This document shows, piece after piece, positions 358 to 6,714 of a stretch of 10,748 bases of DNA; the first letter of the stretch is position 1; each line of letters begins with the position of its first letter. The stretch is from the UHGV virus genome UHGV-0162320; one strand, given 5' to 3'. The notes below the pieces were generated by a model, which had not been told where the DNA came from, did not search any database, and saw only the letters and a list, made by a program, of their open reading frames with translations. This DNA comes from a virus. Position numbers and translations under genes: made by a program.

Positions 358-1260
358 TTAACCCTCCAGTGCTTTTTCAGCCAGGGTGATTACTTCAGCG
401 AGATTTTCATCCGTTACTTCACCAAGTTTCCTGGCTCCCTGTTTTTCCAGAATTGCAATAGCTTCTGCCCGGTAACCCCCTTTTGCTAACTGGAGGATCA
501 ACCCTTCAGCTTGTTTGCGTAGTGCCGCGAAATCAATTGTATGGTCATCTTTGGCGTCATTATTCTGGCTGGAATTTGCTGCGTCTCTGCGTGCAAATTC
601 TTCCTGCAGCTGAAGGTACTCAACACGGTTGATCTCGATATGGCCTTTTTTAAGCATCTCGTTCAACTTGCGTAAGGTATGGAGTTCACTGGCTGCTGTG
701 CCGGATACATTTTTGACGTAAAACGGCCCCGTGCGTTCTCCATCTTTGTTACTGGCCTTTTTCGGCTTAACTTCATCACGCCCATCTGCAGGTGCATCAA
801 GTAGCTGCTCGGCAAAAGCACGTCGCTCGCCGATGGTTGGCAGGTCGTCCCAGAACTTAAGGATGTTACGGGACAGGTCCAGGAGAGCAGGTTTAAGCAG
901 CGCCCTGGCTCGTTTGACGCCCTGCAATGCGCTGTCGAGAGCATCAATCTGAACAACTCGTTTATCGCCTTCAGCATCACGGTAGGCAACAGCACGTTGC
1001 AGCATGTCTTCTGTGATAGGGGTGGCTACCGGGTAGAAACCAGCCAGTGCGATAACGTCGCTGAACTCCAGATCATCCAGTGTCATTGCCGCTGACATAT
1101 TTTCAGTTTCAGTTGCTGTATCCCGACATTCCTGCACTCGTGAAATCGTGTCAGGATGCATAACAATGCCTGATGCCATTGTGCGGATAAGACGTTCAAG
1201 CAGCGCATTATGTTGTGCCAGAAGTTGATTATTAAGTTCTAGACTGGTTTCTAAACTCAT
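358..1260 (-). CDS. hypothetical early-operon protein, 300 aa, acidic; function not recognised (possible recombination partner of the downstream nuclease by position only)
   Basis: Complete 300-aa ORF in track; ATG at 1260 with GAGGA 7 nt upstream; start overlaps stop of upstream small ORF (ATGA); several spurious ORFs in other frames are embedded in it. Confidence 0.75.
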
Positions 1261-1427
1261 ACTGTGGTCCTCGCTACAAGGAGAATGAAAGTGATGATCA
1301 GACCGAGCGCAGTGGCAACGGCCAGACCGGTCATCAAATCGAAGTTTTTACGGCGATAACGGAGAACATCGCGCCCCGTCAGTCGATGGATGTGTTCAGG
1401 TTTCATCGGTTGTATTCCTTTTTTCAT
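1257..1427 (-). CDS. small protein with C-terminal transmembrane helix (about 49-56 aa); start ambiguous (ATG 1427 or ATG 1406)
   Basis: Track ORF 1257..1439; hydrophobic C-terminus [26 protein letters not shown]; stop overlaps start of the 300-aa gene, suggesting translational coupling; AAGGA lies upstream of ATG 1406. Confidence 0.5.
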   Translation of the reverse strand: MKKGIQPMKPEHIHRLTGRDVLRYRRKNFDLMTGLAVATALGLIITFILLVARTTV

Positions 1428-1463
1428 ATCGGGGAGCACGCTGTTGCGAGTGCGCTTTCAGAC

Positions 1464-1491
1464 ATAAAAAAGCCCGTCACGTGAGGCGGGC
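1464..1491 (-). terminator. rho-independent terminator on minus strand (tL1-like position)
   Basis: Plus-strand ataaaaaa + GCCCGTCACGTGAGGCGGGC; on minus strand this is a GC-rich hairpin around the palindrome TCACGTGA, followed by a T-run. Confidence 0.5.
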
Positions 1492-1522
1492 AAAGACTAC
1501 ACACAGCAATTACATGGATGAT

Positions 1523-1717
1523 TCAGTTGGTATTGTGCGTACGTGGTACCACAAGGTTGAAGCGGACACGCCAGTGCGTTGCAATGGTATGCAGGAAAGC
1601 ACCACATCCAGGGCAGTGCTCATAACATTCGTTGATTTGGTATCGTTTTGGCTTTGGTGTCAGAAGCTGTGTTTGGCAAGCAGGGCATTCACCTTTGAGC
1701 GGTTTATACGTTTTCAC
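1523..1717 (-). CDS. small Cys-rich zinc-ribbon-like protein (64 aa, GTG start)
   Basis: Track ORF VKTYKPLKGECPACQTQ...NECYEHCPGCGAF with CxxC...CxxxHCxxC spacing; AGGA 7 nt upstream of GTG; sits between a putative early-left promoter region and the 1464-1491 terminator. Confidence 0.45.
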   Translation of the reverse strand: MKTYKPLKGECPACQTQLLTPKPKRYQINECYEHCPGCGAFLHTIATHWRVRFNLVVPRTHNTN

Positions 1718-1912
1718 GCCGTTTCCTCATTCAGTTCACTTTGGTGGTTCGGCGGCTTCGACTTGTATCAGTAGACAGTGCTTCGCCGCACCCCAAAGGG
1801 AACTTACTGACCCGTATTGCCGACATCCTGTCCCGCCACGGTCCCGACGCATGGTTTAGAGTCGCGCCGTTCGACTTGTGGCTAAAGATACAATTTGAGT
1901 TGTATTATGTAA

Positions 1913-1926
1913 ACCACAAATGTGGT
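1913..1926. promoter_or_regulatory. palindrome ACCACA-AA-TGTGGT, candidate protein-binding site in early-left control region
   Basis: Perfect 6-bp inverted arms; further TGTGG copies at about 1877 and 1931; AT-rich surroundings. Confidence 0.3.
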
Positions 1927-2000
1927 ATTTTGTGGGGTGTGAATACTACTTTATTGATATTTAAGTGAATTTAATTTGTAAGACTTTACAAATGGGGTAA

Positions 2001-2020
2001 GGGAGGCTGTTACGCCTCCC
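2001..2020 (-). terminator. stable hairpin immediately 3' of the repressor gene (weak terminator candidate)
   Basis: GGGAGGC-tgttac-GCCTCCC, perfect 7-bp stem; the downstream tract on the minus strand is only partly U-rich. Confidence 0.35.
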
Positions 2021-2039
2021 GATATTTACGGTGGGAATA

Positions 2040-2663
2040 CTAACGTTTACGGCGGTAAATACGGTGTTCGATCATTACACCTATGATCTGTAAGTTCATA
2101 TCTGCACTACGAAAAATAGGGTAATCAGGATTTAGGGGGATTAATTCAAAGTCGTCGATGCCGATTCCTAATGGACGGTATTTTTTAAATGTAGCTTCGT
2201 GACCGTCGTTTTTGGCGACAACAAACTCCCCTGGTGCAGGACATAGATCAGGATCGATGATAACAATGTCTCCTTCTTTAAACTCTGGTTGCATGCTGTC
2301 GCCATCGATACGTAATGCGAAGCATGTTTCTGGAATGTCAGAGTCTGCCAAAATATATTCAAATTCCCCTGTCAGATCTGTTATGTCTCTTGCTTCTGTA
2401 AGCTCTCCTGCCTGAACGTAACTTAATATAGGTATGCGTCTGGTACTTATCTCCGCGAGAGGCATAATATTTTTACCGTTCAGTAGCCAGTCTGGGCTAC
2501 ATTTCAAGGCCTTAGCCAGATCCAGAAGATTGCGTGGCTTTCTGGTTCGTCCACTTTCGATGGATTCTATGGATTGTTGGCTAACCCCTGCAGAATTCGC
2601 TACTTCCACTTGAGTCATTCCTAATTCCAAACGACGTGCTTTAAAACGGGCTGCGAGAGACAT
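2040..2663 (-). CDS. CI-like repressor, N-terminal XRE-family HTH plus C-terminal S24 (LexA-like) autopeptidase domain
   Basis: ATG at 2663 (MSLAARFKARRLELGMTQVEVANSAGVSQQSIESIESG...) with AAGGA upstream; Ala-Gly cleavage site in VQAGE, Ser motif GDSM and a downstream Lys (ATFKKY) match the LexA/lambda CI autocleavage architecture. Confidence 0.9.
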   Translation of the reverse strand: MSLAARFKARRLELGMTQVEVANSAGVSQQSIESIESGRTRKPRNLLDLAKALKCSPDWLLNGKNIMPLAEISTRRIPILSYVQAGELTEARDITDLTGEFEYILADSDIPETCFALRIDGDSMQPEFKEGDIVIIDPDLCPAPGEFVVAKNDGHEATFKKYRPLGIGIDDFELIPLNPDYPIFRSADMNLQIIGVMIEHRIYRRKR

Positions 2664-2783: not shown

Positions 2784-2996
2784 ATGACCTTAGCGACCCG
2801 AGTAAAAGAACGACGTAAAGAACTCAAAATGACGCAAGTTACGTTGGCTGAGCTCACAGGAGTGAGCCAGCAGGCAATAAACAGAATTGAAAGTGGTGTT
2901 ATTGCTCGGCCACGTTATCTTCTTGAAATGTCTATAGCATTGGATTGCGACCCTAATTGGCTGTTGTATGGCTCACAAAACGATAAAAAGGCTTAA
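2784..2996 (+). CDS. Cro-like XRE-family HTH regulator (70 aa)
   Basis: ATG 2784 with GAGGTG upstream; MTLATRVKERRKELKMTQVTLAELTGVSQQAINRIESG is a classic HTH; divergent from repressor gene; stop 3 nt before primase start. Confidence 0.85.
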   Translation: MTLATRVKERRKELKMTQVTLAELTGVSQQAINRIESGVIARPRYLLEMSIALDCDPNWLLYGSQNDKKA

Positions 2997-2999
2997 CCC

Positions 3000-5192
3000 A
3001 TGTCCGATAGCAAACCATGGGGAGCTACGCCTGATGAGTGGTTTCATTTCGACCTGGTATTGGGGAGAACTGATCATCTTCTCCCAGTTGTATGTAACCC
3101 CAGTGCGACCATATCCCCTGATAGTAAACTGAAAGCGTTGGGTAAGACGCCGAGTCGCTATAACCGGGACCGCCAGGTCACCGGTATTGCTCAATGGACC
3201 GGGCATGTTGTTACTGAGCATGATTTTGCCCGCTGGTCGAATGAACCGGATTATGGCATCTGCGTGCGTACAGGCCATGGCTGGCTGGCGCTGGACTGTG
3301 ATAGCGAAGATGAAGACATTCAGGCAGATATTCGCAAAACGCTTGTGCAACTTCTGGGTGAGTTGCCGCCGCGACGCTGGCGAGCAAACAGTAATAAGTG
3401 TCTGTATCTGCTGGCCGTTGATGGTGATTTCCGTAAGCGTATCCATCGCCTGGCGGGGGATATGGGCATTATCGAGTTGCTGGCGAACGGGCAGCAGTTC
3501 GTTGCCTGCGGTACGCACAGCAGCGGCGCGCGTATTGAATGGGACGGCGGTTTGCCGGATGAACCTCCGGCTATTACTGGTGAGCAGCTTGAAACGCTGT
3601 GGCAGCGCCTGGCTGAACAACTCCCTGTGTCGGTAACCACCGAAGCGGGCAACACGAAGATGCGCGACCGATCAGCATTCACGCCCGGCGCGACGGATGA
3701 TACAGCTGAATATCTTGATGCCAATGGCTGGACGCTGCTGGATGGCGCAAATGGTGAACGATATATCCGCTGTCCGTTTGAAGACGGCCACAGTAGCGGG
3801 GGCGATCCAACAAGCACAGTTTATTTTCCTGCGGGAACCGCGGGCTTTGAGCAGGGGCATTTTAAATGCCTGCATGCCAGTTGTGCGCATCGTGATGACG
3901 GAGATTTCCTTAATGCCATCGGGATCCGCAACGACGATTTCGAAGATCTGACCAGCACCGAAGTGGCGGAACCTTTACCGCTGCCTGCTTTCGAGCGTGA
4001 TAAATGGGGGCGTATCGAGGCAACAATCAGCAACGCAGCCAAAGCAGTAGTACGCCCTGATTTTGTGGACATCGATATTCGCTTTGACCAGTTCCGCGAC
4101 GAAATCATGTTTGCCCCTGCAGGATCCGGACAATGGCGGGCATTCACCGATGCGGATTATGCGCGCCTGCGCATCACGATGGAAAAGCGGGGATTTAAAC
4201 CTGTTGGTCGTGAACTTATTCGCGATGTGGTGTTACTTGCAGCCGATGAACAACCATTCGATTCAGCGATCACTTGGCTGAACGGACTGGAGTGGGATGG
4301 CGTGCCGCGCATCGAATGTTTCTACCATACGCACTTCGGTACCGCCGACACGCCTTATACCCGTGCGGTGTCTATGTACATGTGGACCGCGTTGGCGGGG
4401 CGAGTACTGGAGCCAGGCATCAAAGCGGATATGGTGCCGATCCTCGTTGGTCCGCAGGGCTGCGGTAAGTCTTCCGGAGTGGAGGCACTGAGCCCTGATC
4501 CTGCGTTTTTTACTGAAATCTCTTTTGCCGAAAAAGACGATGATCTCGCTCGAAAAATGCGTGGTCGGCTGGTGGCAGAGATTGGTGAACTGCGCGGACT
4601 TAATACCAAAGAGCTGGAGTCAATCAAAGCGTTTGTGACGCGTACTCACGAAAACTGGATCCCGAAATACCGGGAGTTCGCCACCCAGTTTCCTCGTCGC
4701 CTGGTGTTCGTTGGTACCACCAATGAGGACGAATTCCTTGCGGACAAGACTGGTAACCGTCGCTGGCTCCCCGTGGAAGTGTCGAAAGTCGACGTGAAAG
4801 CGATAAAAAGAGATCTCCTTTTACTTTGGGCTGAGGCTCGTGAGGTGTTTCAGCGTCTGGGGGGTATCCAGTTCCGTGAGGCTGAACAACTGGCAGCGAG
4901 TGTCCATGAACAGTACACCATCAAGGATGCTTGGCTTGAAACGGTAGAGAAATGGCTCGACACGCCAGACCTGATGACTAATGAACTTCCGCGAAATTGC
5001 GAATTTTTACGCGCAAGTGATGTTTTGCGTGATGCGATTGGGCTAAATCCTGACCGCATCGGAAAACGCGAAGAAATGCGAATTAGTAATGTTTTGCAAA
5101 ATTGCGGGTATAAGCGTGCCCAAAGGCGAATTGGGGGGAAAATGACTCGAATTTTTGAGGCGGTGTCCCAACCTGTACCAACCTCAAAATAG
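3000..5192 (+). CDS. replication primase-helicase: AEP-type PrimPol N-domain, zinc-binding segment, VirE/D5-like P-loop NTPase
   Basis: 730-aa ORF; AEP motifs LALDCDSED and CGTHSSG; Cys/His cluster CPFEDGH...CLHASCAH; Walker A GPQGCGKSS and Walker B-like RLVFVGTTNE. Confidence 0.9.
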   Translation: MSDSKPWGATPDEWFHFDLVLGRTDHLLPVVCNPSATISPDSKLKALGKTPSRYNRDRQVTGIAQWTGHVVTEHDFARWSNEPDYGICVRTGHGWLALDCDSEDEDIQADIRKTLVQLLGELPPRRWRANSNKCLYLLAVDGDFRKRIHRLAGDMGIIELLANGQQFVACGTHSSGARIEWDGGLPDEPPAITGEQLETLWQRLAEQLPVSVTTEAGNTKMRDRSAFTPGATDDTAEYLDANGWTLLDGANGERYIRCPFEDGHSSGGDPTSTVYFPAGTAGFEQGHFKCLHASCAHRDDGDFLNAIGIRNDDFEDLTSTEVAEPLPLPAFERDKWGRIEATISNAAKAVVRPDFVDIDIRFDQFRDEIMFAPAGSGQWRAFTDADYARLRITMEKRGFKPVGRELIRDVVLLAADEQPFDSAITWLNGLEWDGVPRIECFYHTHFGTADTPYTRAVSMYMWTALAGRVLEPGIKADMVPILVGPQGCGKSSGVEALSPDPAFFTEISFAEKDDDLARKMRGRLVAEIGELRGLNTKELESIKAFVTRTHENWIPKYREFATQFPRRLVFVGTTNEDEFLADKTGNRRWLPVEVSKVDVKAIKRDLLLLWAEAREVFQRLGGIQFREAEQLAASVHEQYTIKDAWLETVEKWLDTPDLMTNELPRNCEFLRASDVLRDAIGLNPDRIGKREEMRISNVLQNCGYKRAQRRIGGKMTRIFEAVSQPVPTSK

Positions 5193-5473: not shown

Positions 5474-5896
5474 ATGCGTAATATTCAACAGGTTTTAGAG
5501 CGCTGGGGTGGCTGGGCAGCGAGTGAAGGTGGTAGTGTCTACTTTCCTCCTGTTGCAGCCGGGTTTAAGAATCTGCTACCCGCGACGCAGTCTGGAAGGC
5601 TGAAATGCAGTGACAATGACGGTCTTATCATCAACTCCGCTATGAGCTGCCTGAAGAAAAAAGATCCGTATCTGTGCACGCTCCTTGAGTGGCATTACGT
5701 CCAGGCCATGCCCGTGCGGGCGATGGGTGAGAAGCTCGGCGTATCTCACACCCACGTTCTGAAGAGGCTTCAGGCGGCAGAGGGATTTATTGACGGTTGC
5801 TTAGCCATGCTGGATGTGGTGCTCGAAATGGATCAGTCGGTTCAGTCAAAGCCTCAGGCTATCAGGACTTTGCGTAGGAGCTGCTCGGCGGCATAA
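5474..5896 (+). CDS. late-gene antiterminator, Q family (QuuD-like)
   Basis: ATG 5474 with GAGG upstream; MRNIQQVLERWGGWAA...VAAGFKNL...LKRLQAAEGFIDGCLAMLDVVLEMD parallels my recollection of E. coli DLP12 QuuD (MRDIQMVLERWGAWAA...AAGFKGL...). Confidence 0.75.
   Translation: MRNIQQVLERWGGWAASEGGSVYFPPVAAGFKNLLPATQSGRLKCSDNDGLIINSAMSCLKKKDPYLCTLLEWHYVQAMPVRAMGEKLGVSHTHVLKRLQAAEGFIDGCLAMLDVVLEMDQSVQSKPQAIRTLRRSCSAA
5869..5896 (+). promoter_or_regulatory. candidate late promoter (pR'-like) overlapping the 3' end of the Q gene
   Basis: TTGCGT (5869-5874), 16-nt spacer, CATAAT (5891-5896); lambdoid phages place pR' directly downstream of Q. Confidence 0.35.
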
Positions 5897-6269: not shown

Positions 6270-6336
6270 AAAATAGTTGTGGAATTCCAAAAAGCCGATT
6301 AGCCTGATATCCGTTGAAAACAGTTCATCACGAAGA

Positions 6337-6363
6337 GGCTTCCGCAAGGGGGCCTTTTTTATT
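6337..6363 (+). terminator. rho-independent terminator candidate
   Basis: GGCTTCC-GCAA-GGGGGCC (7-bp stem with two G-U pairs, GNRA loop) followed by TTTTTTATT. Confidence 0.5.
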
Positions 6364-6589
6364 GCCCCATTCTGGGGAAAAGTTAATAAAACAGGGCTTT
6401 CGCTGCGAAAAAACGCTATGCAGTTTTTGCCCTTTTTTATGCACCTTTTATTCACTCGAATTTCGTCATTCTGGACCACTTAAGTTGATTAAATAGGCCT
6501 TTCATCGCAAATCTATTGCGAGCGGGGATCGTGTGGTTCCTATAACATACATTATGTTAAATAACCTCCTTTTTTAACAAATTTAACAA

Positions 6590-6613
6590 GGTTCGCTATG
6601 GCGAACTTTTTTT
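6590..6613 (+). terminator. rho-independent terminator (tR'-like) upstream of lysis genes
   Basis: GGTTCGC-tatg-GCGAAC perfect stem followed by TTTTTTT. Confidence 0.7.
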
Positions 6614-6714
6614 GTATTCAGGGCCCACCGAAGGACGGCTCATAACCCAATCCTACGGGCGTATACGCAGGGCCCGCCTTTCAACAACACCCCGTAATGG
6701 CGGAGGTGGGAAGT

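What the first reader, a model, noticed from the sequence alone, without database searches (positions are those of the whole stretch)
1440..2040. Zinc-ribbon mini-protein plus terminator in the slot lambda uses for N
Reading leftward from the repressor gene there are a hairpin (2001-2020), an AT-rich region with the ACCACA-AA-TGTGGT palindrome, a 64-aa CxxC...CxxxHCxxC ORF with a decent RBS, and a clear minus-strand terminator (1464-1491) right before the early-left genes. No N-like Arg-rich protein is present. The zinc-ribbon protein may be a regulator that governs read-through into the early-left operon. Direct repeats TTCGACTTGT at 1753 and 1869 are unexplained.
Basis: inference. Interest (0 to 1): 0.5.

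Follow-up and report, generated by a model that had tools for sequence, protein, structure and literature searches.

The report
Put antiterminator and RprA-like phage terminator
This stretch is the early-left control region of an E. coli prophage that, like phage HK022, most likely reads through its terminator with a self-acting RNA (put) rather than an N-type or zinc-ribbon protein; unexpectedly, that terminator is a copy of the active 3' part of the host small RNA RprA, a module that many other phages also carry.

Summary
All the described features are present, with small coordinate offsets. The proposed mechanism, a zinc-ribbon protein governing read-through, is not supported. Window 1803-1880 (minus strand) sits directly after a PL-like promoter and is a clear homologue of the HK022 putL antiterminator RNA. 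It is about 80% identical, has compensatory changes in both stems, and keeps every residue whose mutation inactivates put. This explains the absence of an N-like protein. The 64-aa zinc-ribbon ORF looks like a real gene (dN/dS 0.28, cysteines kept). However, it occupies a swappable cassette slot, the slot that holds nun in HK022. Sibling phages carry unrelated ORFs or none there and still keep the leader, the terminator and the early-left genes. The unexpected result concerns the terminator. Window 1462-1511 reproduces RprA60-105, the processed and active form of the host sRNA RprA. The match is 24/24 identical bases followed by a covarying hairpin and a U-run. The same core occurs in more than 120 viral contigs in at least 40 contexts, usually just downstream of a repressor gene, and also in lytic Erwinia phages. 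It is complementary over 15 bp to the csgD leader. Whether it acts as an sRNA is inferred, not shown. I found no publication describing it.

The parts
2001..2020 (-). GC-rich hairpin 20 nt after the stop of the LexA/cI-type repressor gene (2040-2663). It is probably the repressor-gene terminator or a stabilising hairpin. Its U-tract is weak.
   Evidence: -16.1 kcal/mol, z -5.1. Sibling phages have a hairpin with a better T-run at the same place.
1885..1913 (-). PL-like sigma-70 promoter, with -35 TTTACA at 1913-1908 and -10 TATCTT at 1890-1885. It has the same -35 hexamer and the same spacing to put as HK022 PL.
   Evidence: a consensus match only; the number of sites equals the chance expectation. 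One search gives an ungapped alignment to HK022 PL from the -10 hexamer into put.
1888..1926 (.). Two inverted repeats overlapping the promoter: ATACAATTTGAGTTGTAT (1888-1905) and ACCACAAATGTGGT (1913-1926). They are candidate operators. ACAA/TTGT half-sites recur in the repressor-cro intergenic region (2710-2771).
   Evidence: The region is 90% conserved in the Enterobacter relative L311. Operator function is inferred.
1803..1880 (-). putL-type cis-acting antiterminator RNA, homologous to HK022 putL.
   Evidence: about 80% identity; 92.6% of cells paired on the cryo-EM structure, 9 pairs with compensatory changes, slid controls 24-39%; covariance-model hits; 76/76 identical in the Enterobacter prophage.
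1733..1804 (-). Long, stable leader hairpin between put and the ORF's ribosome-binding site. It contains the second ACAAGTCGAA copy in its apical part. Function unknown.
   Evidence: -38 kcal/mol, z -4.6. The stem base is conserved with changed partners in L029, L072 and L311.
1523..1717 (-). 64-aa CxxC...CxxC ORF in the slot that holds nun in HK022. It is likely a real gene of unknown function and is not annotated by PGAP.
   Evidence: no annotation in strain F11; three protein clusters; cysteines invariant; dN/dS 0.28 against the Enterobacter copy; zf-IS66 at 25.9 bits, cut-off 27.3.
1462..1511 (-). RprA60-105-like module: core AUUGCUGUGUGUAGUCUUUGCC (1489-1510), terminator hairpin (1472-1491) and U-run (1466-1471). 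It serves as the tL terminator of the early-left leader.
   Evidence: RF00034, 50.5 bits; 24/24 identity to rprA; same predicted fold as the native 3' end; conservation and covariation in phages; 15-bp complementarity to the csgD leader.
1257..1406 (-). First early-left gene downstream of the terminator: a conserved 49-aa protein with an Arg-rich N-terminus and a hydrophobic C-terminal segment. The longest ORF extends to 1439.
   Evidence: phrog_11981, E 1.5e-36. It is conserved in all sibling loci.

Best explanation
Window 1440-2040, read leftward on the minus strand, is the early-left control region of an HK022-type temperate phage. The order of elements is: hairpin ending the repressor gene; PL-like promoter with operator-like palindromes; putL RNA; a long leader hairpin; a swappable small ORF, here a 64-aa zinc-ribbon protein; an intrinsic terminator; then the early-left genes. 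Proposed mechanism: when the repressor is lost, PL fires. The nascent put RNA folds, binds the beta' zinc-binding domain of the transcribing polymerase and makes it terminator-resistant. Polymerase then reads through the 1466-1491 terminator into the early-left operon without any N-like or zinc-ribbon factor. The terminator probably insulates the early-left genes from polymerases not modified by put. The terminator is itself a copy of RprA60-105, the processed and active 3' domain of the host sRNA RprA. Transcripts that end there and are cut at the conserved A|AUU site would release an Hfq-binding RNA of about 47 nt carrying RprA's conserved core. That RNA could act on RprA targets such as the csgD leader. 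Shown here: sequence and structural homology of put, its position, the replaceability of the ORF, the identity to RprA and its conservation across phages. Inferred: promoter and operator activity, put function in this phage, release and action of the sRNA, and any role of the ORF. The confidence given applies to the architecture and to put-mediated read-through; I put the sRNA function alone at about 0.4-0.5.
For: put. The alignment to HK022 PL-putL is ungapped from the -10 hexamer into put. On the published cryo-EM structure (PMC9378689), 92.6% of cells pair, 9 pairs show changes on both sides, and slid controls give 24-39%. A9, U28, G35, G45, A64 and the AACCAU -10-like element are all kept. 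The window has a single put and no boxA. put is 76/76 identical in an Enterobacter prophage whose ORF is only 79% identical.

ORF not required. Unrelated ORFs, or none, occupy the same slot in sibling phages.

RprA module. Rfam RprA hit, E 3.6e-4. The match to rprA is 24/24 identical. The identity begins at nt 59/60, which is the 5' end of RprAproc/RprA60-105 (PMC9262595; PMC3465796). The predicted fold matches the native 3' end. More than 120 viral contigs and at least 40 upstream contexts carry it. In 10 of 10 of the largest contexts it lies downstream of an HTH/S24 repressor. In loci fetched independently of the core, 48 of 55 carry it, and the core is 98% identical against 55-79% in the flanks. 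The hairpin covaries: AU 13, GC 13, CG 4, UA 1. The core forms a 15-bp duplex with csgD site Ib at -25 kcal/mol; 0 of 500 shuffles reach this. RprA60-105 alone represses csgD when overproduced (PMC3465796).
Against: There are no expression or functional data for this phage. The promoter call is a consensus match whose count equals the chance expectation. Efficient put read-through would reduce the amount of RNA that ends at the terminator. PL is presumably repressed in lysogens, so any sRNA would be made mainly after induction. The RprA model scores 50.5 bits, below Rfam's 70-bit cut-off, and the 5' two-thirds of RprA, including the rpoS-pairing region, is absent. The module is dispensable: L283, L306 and L301 lack it, and several loci carry single substitutions in the core. 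Part of the csgD site Ia pairing is lost because the terminator stem differs (-31.7 against -37.0 kcal/mol). No putR was found in the window or in the whole F11 prophage.
Confidence: 0.75

Rival explanations
1. One reading: the 64-aa zinc-ribbon protein is an N-analogue or other trans-acting factor that controls read-through of the 1464-1491 terminator.
For: The ORF sits in the N/nun slot, has a good Shine-Dalgarno sequence, conserved cysteines and dN/dS of 0.28. Another CxxC...CxxC mini-protein occupies the slot in L029.
Against: A put homologue is present and suffices in HK022 (PMC9378689). Phages with the same terminator and early-left genes have unrelated ORFs, or none, in the slot. No nut or boxA site is present. 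There is no match to DksA/TraR or to any antiterminator family.
Confidence: 0.05
2. The RprA-like module is only a terminator, or a mosaic-boundary sequence exchanged between phages. Its likeness to RprA would then reflect capture of a good host terminator, with no trans-acting RNA function.
For: It always ends in a working-looking hairpin and U-run, and it sits at junctions between variable and conserved phage segments. It is absent or mutated in some relatives. No target was found within the prophage.
Against: Termination needs only the hairpin and U-run, and those are the parts that vary. The 22 nt upstream of them stay about 98% identical across otherwise unrelated contexts and hosts, including lytic Erwinia phages. 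The conserved block starts at the RprA processing site and equals the RprA fragment shown to be active.
Confidence: 0.35
3. The module is an attP-type remnant of phages that integrate into the 3' end of rprA.
For: Phages commonly carry the 3' end of the RNA gene they integrate into. Phage_Finder lists RprA among the candidate target RNAs it scans.
Against: In strain F11 the prophage sits next to yfhL, with its integrase about 10 kb from the module. The module lies inside the early-left operon downstream of the repressor in many families, and after thymidylate synthase in lytic N4-like phages that have no integrase context.
Confidence: 0.03
4. The zinc-ribbon ORF is a moron-type accessory gene, for example a superinfection-exclusion or host-modulating protein analogous in position to HK022 Nun. 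This is compatible with the best explanation.
For: It is a cassette-like slot with many alternative small ORFs. The position is the same as nun. The ORF shows purifying selection.
Against: There is no similarity to Nun or to any defence family. The structure model has low confidence, pLDDT 64. It is not known whether the ORF is expressed in lysogens.
Confidence: 0.3
5. put here is an inactive relic, and the early-left genes are driven by their own promoter downstream of the terminator.
For: Weak promoter-like matches occur at 1255..1207 on the minus strand.
Against: Those matches are no more frequent than in shuffles, and they lie inside the early-left genes, downstream of the first gene's start. 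Only about 25 nt separate the U-run from the first gene's ribosome-binding site. put is perfectly conserved where neighbouring sequence has diverged.
Confidence: 0.05

Closest known systems
HK022 putL / putR (polymerase-utilisation RNAs)
   Same: The position directly after PL is the same. The two-stem fold with a stem-I pseudoknot/triplex is kept, as are the critical residues and the -10-like AACCAU. There is no N protein, and a non-antiterminator ORF follows.
   Different: About 20% of the sequence differs and stem II is one base pair shorter. No putR was found. The phage backbone differs: it is a myovirus-type prophage with a family A DNA polymerase, a VapE primase and DUF2800/DUF2815 genes. 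The following ORF is not nun.
Lambda N / nutL / tL1
   Same: The genetic slot and logic are the same: a terminator between PL and the delayed-early left genes must be overridden.
   Different: No Arg-rich protein and no boxA/boxB are present. The override is by a cis-acting RNA.
Host sRNA RprA, and specifically RprA60-105 / RprAproc
   Same: 24 of 24 nt are identical from the processing site to the terminator. The predicted small hairpin, linker, terminator and U-tail are the same. The anti-csgD site Ib is kept.
   Different: The module lacks the 5' stem-loop, the rpoS-pairing region and the Rcs-dependent promoter. It lies in the 3' UTR of a phage ORF. The terminator stem and loop differ, and the Rfam score is below the cut-off.
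DicF (Qin prophage) and StxS (Stx phage PR' transcript)
   Same: These are Hfq-type sRNAs generated from prophage early or late leader transcripts by processing and/or early termination at a phage terminator.
   Different: They are unrelated in sequence, and neither copies a core-genome sRNA. Expression of the element described here has not been tested.
AgvB / AsxR phage anti-sRNAs of EHEC
   Same: They are phage-borne RNAs that interfere with a core sRNA network.
   Different: They mimic sRNA targets and act as sponges. The element here mimics the sRNA itself.
HK022 Nun
   Same: It is the protein encoded in the same slot, between put and the first terminator.
   Different: There is no sequence similarity, and the function of the 64-aa protein is unknown.

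Membership tests
put antiterminator RNA (HK022 type) | Located just downstream of the early promoter, transcribed as the 5' end of the early transcript | tested here: met
   The spacing from the -10 hexamer to put is the same as in HK022 PL.
put antiterminator RNA (HK022 type) | Two-stem structure: stem Ia 3-7/15-19, stem Ib 10-14/30-34, stem II 36-72 | tested here: met
   92.6% of cells paired, 9 pairs with compensatory changes, slid controls 24-39%.
put antiterminator RNA (HK022 type) | Residues whose mutation inactivates put (A9, U28, G35, G45, A64) and the -10-like AACCAU at +23..+28 | tested here: met
   All are present in the window sequence. The mutational data come from PMC9378689.
put antiterminator RNA (HK022 type) | Factor-independent antitermination and antipausing that depend on the beta' zinc-binding domain | not testable with these tools
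   Needs reporter or in vitro transcription assays.
put antiterminator RNA (HK022 type) | Second copy (putR) in the rightward operon | tested here: not met
   The covariance model finds one copy in the window and one in the 41.6-kb F11 prophage stretch. It does detect HK022 putR at 49 bits. This feature is not essential for putL function.
RprA (Rfam RF00034) | Score at or above the family's gathering threshold (70 bits) | tested here: not met
   50.5 bits, E 3.6e-4. Other phage copies score 47-56 bits.
RprA (Rfam RF00034) | 5' stem-loop and central rpoS-pairing region | tested here: not met
   There is no meaningful similarity 5' of RprA nt 59.
RprA (Rfam RF00034) | Conserved 3' core (nt 60-81), intrinsic terminator and U-tail, i.e. 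RprA60-105 | tested here: met
   24/24 identity and the same predicted fold. The same 22-mer occurs exactly in more than 120 species genomes across many genera of Enterobacterales; I did not check which of these copies are the native rprA gene.
RprA (Rfam RF00034) | Free-standing gene at ydiK-ydiL with its own Rcs-controlled promoter | tested here: not met
   It lies in a prophage operon, 11 nt after an ORF stop codon. The native copy is elsewhere.
RprA (Rfam RF00034) | Hfq binding and regulation of csgD, dgcM and other targets | not testable with these tools
   Only the predicted pairing to csgD site Ib could be computed.
Lambda-type N / nut antitermination | Arg-rich-motif protein plus a boxA/boxB nut site in the leader | tested here: not met
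   No such ORF. No boxA within 2 mismatches in the leader.
DksA/TraR-type zinc finger | Match to the family profile | tested here: not met
   No hit at E <= 0.1 in Pfam.
zf-IS66 (PF13005) | Score at or above the Pfam gathering cut-off | tested here: inconclusive
   25.9 bits against a 27.3 cut-off, residues 34-59 only. One identical database protein carries a precomputed PF13005 tag.

The most novel reading that the evidence does not exclude
Phages of Enterobacterales, both temperate ones of many immunity types and lytic N4-like Erwinia phages, carry a portable mimic of RprA60-105 at the 3' end of early transcripts. After termination and RNase E cutting at the conserved A|AUU site, it would load onto Hfq and take over part of the host RprA regulon, for example csgD and dgcM and hence curli and biofilm matrix, during induction or infection. 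This would be the first case of a phage copying the active core of a core-genome sRNA, rather than sponging it.
Probability: 0.4. Interest if true: 0.8.

Novelty: new variant of a known kind. Interest (0 to 1): 0.6.

Why it matters
There are two points. First, put-type RNA antitermination, known mainly from HK022 and a handful of relatives, turns out to operate the early-left switch of a quite different prophage family. That family has a family A DNA polymerase and a VapE primase, has a myovirus-type relative, and matches, at least in part, prophages in about 3% of complete E. coli genomes. In this family put alternates, at the same position, with a boxA-containing leader, which makes a convenient natural comparison. 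Second, the terminator that put must override is a copy of the most conserved and independently active part of the host sRNA RprA, and this module is widespread in phages. If it is expressed, phages would have a direct handle on the Rcs/RprA output (csgD, dgcM, possibly narP). That link between phage development and biofilm or envelope-stress regulation is directly testable with Northern blots, Hfq pull-downs and existing csgD reporters. It also raises the question of the evolutionary relationship between RprA's 3' domain and phage terminators.

Tried and rejected
- **ORF family searches.** Pfam, PHROGs and PADLOC searches of the 64-aa ORF and its neighbours gave only a sub-threshold zf-IS66 hit. 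There was no DksA/TraR, antiterminator or defence family match.
- **ORF structure.** AlphaFold2 on three homologues gave pLDDT 64 and an all-helical model. This is too unreliable for a fold search, so none was run.
- **Second put copy.** A covariance-model search found no putR in the window or in the F11 prophage.
- **boxA/nut search in the window.** It returned only a chance-level match inside the primase gene.
- **Target inside the prophage.** Apart from the trivial antisense match, the best sites (-24.9 kcal/mol) fall within the range of shuffled seeds (-22 to -27).
- **Integration-site idea.** Rejected because of the module's position relative to the integrase and attachment site.
- **tRNA linkage.** Some contexts have a T-arm-like motif just upstream of the module, but ARAGORN finds no tRNA adjacent to it.
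- **Rfam on HK022 and sibling loci.** No put family exists in Rfam, so the lack of a hit in the leader is uninformative.
- **Literature.** Searches by name, by concept and by the sequence string found no description of a phage RprA-like element. The Papenfort 2015 RprA/ricI paper is not in the held library.
- **Independent promoter for the early-left genes.** Promoter-like matches are no more frequent than in shuffles.
Full report
**What the window is.** Region 1200-2800 is 100% identical to prophages in E. coli F11, BH100 and other strains. 153 of 5426 complete E. coli genomes match at least part of this query, and 43 match at least 80% of it. In F11 the prophage lies next to yfhL and carries an integrase, a family A DNA polymerase, DUF2800/DUF2815 genes, a VapE primase, a Q antiterminator and tail, baseplate and other morphogenesis genes. 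Its closest cultured relatives are the induced phages vB_EcoM-606R2, -689R2 and -611R5, which match only the left 320 nt of the query. Reading the window gives this gene order:
- a 300-aa early-left protein, 358-1260 (minus strand)
- a small Arg-rich/hydrophobic protein, 1257-1406/1439 (minus)
- the 64-aa ORF, 1523-1717 (minus)
- a LexA/S24-HTH repressor, 2040-2663 (minus)
- a Cro-like HTH protein, 2784-2996 (plus)
- a VapE primase, 3000-5192
- Q, 5474-5896

PGAP annotates nothing between the small early-left gene (window 1257-1406) and the repressor gene, so the 64-aa ORF and all RNA elements described below are unannotated.

**Check of the observation.**
- The hairpin at 2001-2020 is a perfect 7-bp GC-rich stem 20 nt after the repressor stop.
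- The palindrome ACCACAAATGTGGT (1913-1926) overlaps the -35 hexamer of a minus-strand promoter-like site, TTTACA-17-TATCTT.
- The 64-aa ORF has a GTG start and a GAGGAA Shine-Dalgarno sequence.
- The terminator has its hairpin at 1472-1491 and a six-U run at 1466-1471. The simple scan missed it only because its loop is longer than 8 nt.
- The 10-nt direct repeat lies at 1757-1766 and 1870-1879, slightly off the stated positions.

**The leader is a put RNA.** I compared phages that share the early-left operon. The sequence between the promoter and the ORF is conserved even where the ORF is not. I then fetched HK022 (AF069308) and read leftward from its cI gene. Window 1880-1803 (minus strand) aligns without gaps, from the -10 hexamer onward, to HK022 PL-putL at about 80% identity.

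I numbered the RNA as in the cryo-EM study (PMC9378689). The differences are compensatory:
- stem Ia: A5-U17 becomes U-A
- stem II: G38-C70 becomes C-G, C41-G66 becomes U-A, and U49-A57 becomes A-U
- one base pair is deleted on both sides

I tested the published pseudoknotted structure on an alignment of nine distinct sequences: HK022 putL and putR, the window, and six other phage variants. It gave 92.6% paired cells and nine pairs with changes on both sides. With the 3' partners slid by 1 to 3 columns, only 24-39% of cells paired.

The residues whose mutation inactivates put (A9, U28, G35, G45, A64) and the -10-like AACCAU at +23..+28 are all present. A covariance model built from this alignment finds one put in the window and one in the 41.6-kb F11 stretch. 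It recovers HK022 putL at 83 bits and putR at 49 bits. Rfam has no put family, which is why the Rfam scan was silent here. No boxA is present.

In HK022, put acts in cis on the polymerase that made it. It binds the beta' zinc-binding domain and needs no phage protein (PMC9378689). This is the most economical explanation for the missing N-like protein and for how the terminator is passed. Function in this particular phage is inferred from homology.

**The zinc-ribbon ORF.** It is probably a real gene.
- The 5.8-billion-protein database holds three clusters, at 100, 88 and 75% identity, from E. coli and Enterobacter bugandensis.
- C11, C14, C31, C35 and C38 are invariant.
- Against the Enterobacter copy, the ORF shows 15 synonymous and 18 non-synonymous changes, giving dN/dS of 0.28.

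It is not required for the architecture around it. In sibling phages the conserved leader end and Shine-Dalgarno sequence (...CCACCAAAGTGAACTGAATGAGGAA) are followed by other ORFs:
- an unrelated 69-aa ORF (L013)
- a 68-aa ORF (L005, L016)
- a different 58-aa CxxC...CxxC ORF (L029)
- a 175-aa ORF matching a PHROG named RusA-like resolvase, with weaker matches to DNA polymerase processivity factor families (L041)
- a 117-aa ORF (L008)

L302 has no ORF in the slot. In L283 and L306 both the ORF and the terminator are missing, and the sequence upstream runs straight into the first early-left gene; in L306 that upstream sequence is the boxA-type leader.

The slot corresponds to nun in HK022. Pfam gives only zf-IS66 at 25.9 bits, below its 27.3 cut-off. 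DksA/TraR, PHROGs and PADLOC give nothing informative. The AlphaFold model is unreliable, with pLDDT 64. I treat the ORF as an accessory cassette gene of unknown function. It may be a moron-type or exclusion gene, but that is speculation.

**The terminator is a copy of the RprA 3' domain.** The Rfam scan returned RprA (RF00034) on 1571-1462, minus strand, at 50.5 bits with E = 3.6e-4. This is below the 70-bit gathering score. A search of all complete E. coli genomes showed that window 1466-1511 matches the annotated rprA gene in essentially every genome. Alignment to a K-12-type rprA shows 24 of 24 identical bases, AATTGCTGTGTGTAGTCTTTGCCC (RprA nt 59-82). A terminator follows with a different stem and loop, and nothing convincing lies 5' of nt 59.

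That boundary is meaningful.
- RprA is cut by RNase E into a stable 3' species, called RprA60-105 or RprAproc (the last 47 nt).
- This species coexists with the full-length RNA (PMC9262595; PMC6202311).
[quoted passage not shown] The window RNA is predicted to fold like the native fragment, with a small hairpin, a linker, a terminator and a U-tail. So this element is not an rprA gene. It fails the model threshold, lacks the 5' stem-loop and the rpoS-pairing region, and has no promoter of its own. It is a faithful copy of the processed form.

**The module is widespread in phages.**
- The exact 24-mer occurs in 64 IMG/VR contigs.
- In the fetched loci the core [A/C]ATTGCTGTGTGTAGTCTTTGCC is always followed by a hairpin and a T-run. 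There are about 60 distinct versions in 43 upstream contexts.
- The hairpin base GCCC/GGGC is fixed. The fifth pair covaries (AU 13, GC 13, CG 4, UA 1), and the upper stem and loop vary freely.
- In the ten largest contexts, the nearest upstream same-strand ORF of at least 95 aa is an HTH or HTH-S24 repressor lying 230-1050 nt from the module. The module is therefore typically the first terminator of the early-left transcript in many immunity types.
- It also occurs directly after the thymidylate synthase stop codon of lytic N4-like Erwinia phages such as Ea9-2, Frozen, Rexella, Gutmeister and Tellus.

Those searches were conditioned on the core, so I also fetched loci through the neighbouring 300-aa protein. 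Of 55 such loci, 48 carry the core with at most 3 substitutions, and 38 carry it exactly. Mean pairwise identity is 98% for the core. It is 55% for the 20 nt upstream, 79% for the rest of the hairpin, and 73% and 61% further downstream. These are ungapped comparisons, so the flank values are lower bounds. In the Enterobacter prophage the core is 22/22 identical while the adjacent 15 nt are 60% identical. The same 22-mer occurs exactly in more than 120 species genomes spread over Enterobacterales, from Xenorhabdus and Proteus to Pantoea and Dickeya. Most are presumably native rprA, though I did not check contexts. This marks the 22-mer as RprA's functional core.

**What the module may do.** The conservation pattern is the signature of an Hfq-type base-pairing RNA rather than of a mere terminator. 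The sequence is constrained in the single-stranded part, only the structure is constrained in the terminator, and a U-tail follows.

The core forms a 15-bp duplex, with one G-U pair, with csgD leader -98..-84 (ACUACACACAGCAGU). This is site Ib of Mika et al. The duplex energy is -25.0 kcal/mol, against -13.7 +/- 2.5 for shuffled cores, and 0 of 500 shuffles reach it. The whole window module gives -31.7 kcal/mol and native RprA60-105 gives -37.0, because part of the site Ia pairing uses the terminator arm, which differs. No comparable target exists inside the prophage.

I therefore propose that transcripts ending at 1466 and cut at the conserved A|AUU site release an RprA60-105 mimic. This step is inference. 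There are several caveats:
- Efficient put read-through would limit the number of terminated transcripts.
- PL is presumably off in lysogens.
- Some relatives lack the module or have mutated it.

The main rival is that it is only a good terminator or a mosaic junction. That reading does not explain why the 22 nt that termination does not need are the conserved part.

**Other points.** This hairpin sits between put and the ORF's ribosome-binding site, and its stem base is kept with changed partners in relatives. In the related L058, L025 and L013, a 13-nt deletion removes most of that copy. The repeat is therefore partly explained, since one copy is put stem I, and has no demonstrated role of its own.

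Among the 50 sibling loci searched (excluding F11 and HK022), 23 carry put. At the same position, others carry a different leader of about 200 nt that starts with a perfect boxA (CGCTCTTTAACAA).

**Novelty and verdict.** The put element is a new member of a known family, in a phage backbone unlike HK022. I found no description of the RprA60-105-like terminator module in the searchable literature, whether by name, by concept or by sequence string. The closest precedents are DicF and StxS, which are sRNAs generated from phage leader transcripts, and the EHEC anti-sRNAs. None of these copies the active core of a host sRNA. The terminator's RprA mimicry is the interesting, testable residue, and I give about 0.4-0.5 that it is a functional sRNA.

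Noticed in passing
Sibling loci L034, L047, L005, L016, L021, L030, L029, L302, L306 (leader between the PL-like promoter and the slot ORF); not in the window: At the position where the window has put, many sibling phages have a different GC-rich leader of about 200 nt. It begins with a perfect rrn-type boxA (CGCTCTTTAACAA) and ends in ...GAAACGCCCCGATGATGGGGCG. No N-like protein is evident in those phages either. It may be an alternative, possibly Nus-factor-dependent, RNA antitermination element. L034 and L047 combine it with the same zinc-ribbon ORF as the window.
   Followed up: partly
window 1733-1804 (minus strand): A long, stable hairpin (-38 kcal/mol, z -4.6) lies between put and the ORF's ribosome-binding site. 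Its stem base is kept with changed partners in L029, L072 and L311. Its placement recalls the RNase III hairpin in the lambda N leader. Function unknown.
   Followed up: partly
L256 1500-1548 (Erwinia phage Ea9-2, NC_023579 22137-22183); also phages Frozen, Rexella, Gutmeister and Tellus: Lytic N4-like Erwinia phages carry the identical 24-mer RprA core plus a hairpin and U-run directly after the thymidylate synthase stop codon. The module is therefore not restricted to temperate phages or to the PL slot.
   Followed up: partly
L003, L024, L061, L009, L048 (20-35 nt upstream of the module): In some contexts the RprA-like core is directly preceded by a tRNA T-arm-like motif (GGTTCGATTCCGG or GGGTTCGAGTCCC). 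ARAGORN finds no tRNA adjacent to it; the only tRNA found is a tRNA-Met about 300 nt upstream in L048. Unexplained.
   Followed up: partly
L006, L076, L101, L028, L033 (upstream of the module): In Rac/YdaT-like lambdoid contexts the similarity to RprA extends further 5' (..GCAACGAAT..), and the leaders share conserved blocks such as CGGGTCGCCGCCAGTACGATGACATGCGGGAAAGACCGC. These may be fuller RprA homologues or other leader RNAs.
   Followed up: no
window 1257-1406 (minus strand): The first early-left gene encodes a 49-aa protein (phrog_11981) with an Arg-rich N-terminus (RLTGRDVLRYRRKNF) and a hydrophobic C-terminal helix. It is present in nearly all sibling loci fetched through the neighbouring gene. 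Function unknown; it is not N-like.
   Followed up: partly
window 1407-1465 (minus strand), and upstream of the module in L068, L004, L003 and L084: A GAAAGCGCA(C/T)TC... motif forming a hairpin with ...GCGTGCT/GGAGTGCGCT recurs next to the module. It lies downstream of the terminator in the window's family and upstream of the module in other families.
   Followed up: no
window 6336-6365 and 6594-6616 (plus strand): Two intrinsic-terminator-like hairpins with T-runs lie between the Q antiterminator gene and the holin gene. The first gives a weak Rfam ctRNA_p42d hit (26 bits, E 0.035). This is probably the PR'/tR' late control region.
   Followed up: no
window 1523-1717; L001 20208-20840: RefSeq/PGAP annotation of the identical F11 prophage has no feature between the small early-left gene and the repressor. 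The 64-aa ORF, put and the RprA-like module are all unannotated.
   Followed up: yes
L006 12230-12318: There is an above-threshold Rfam hit to sRNA-Xcc1 (68 bits, cut-off 53) elsewhere on a viral contig that also carries the RprA-like module.
   Followed up: no
E. coli genome search: 29 of the 5612 places matching the RprA-like query lie on records classed as plasmids. At least one of these (the 166.9-kb record NZ_CP074995.1) is annotated as rprA itself, so some may be native copies or misassigned chromosomal pieces; others could be phage-plasmids. Not examined.
   Followed up: no
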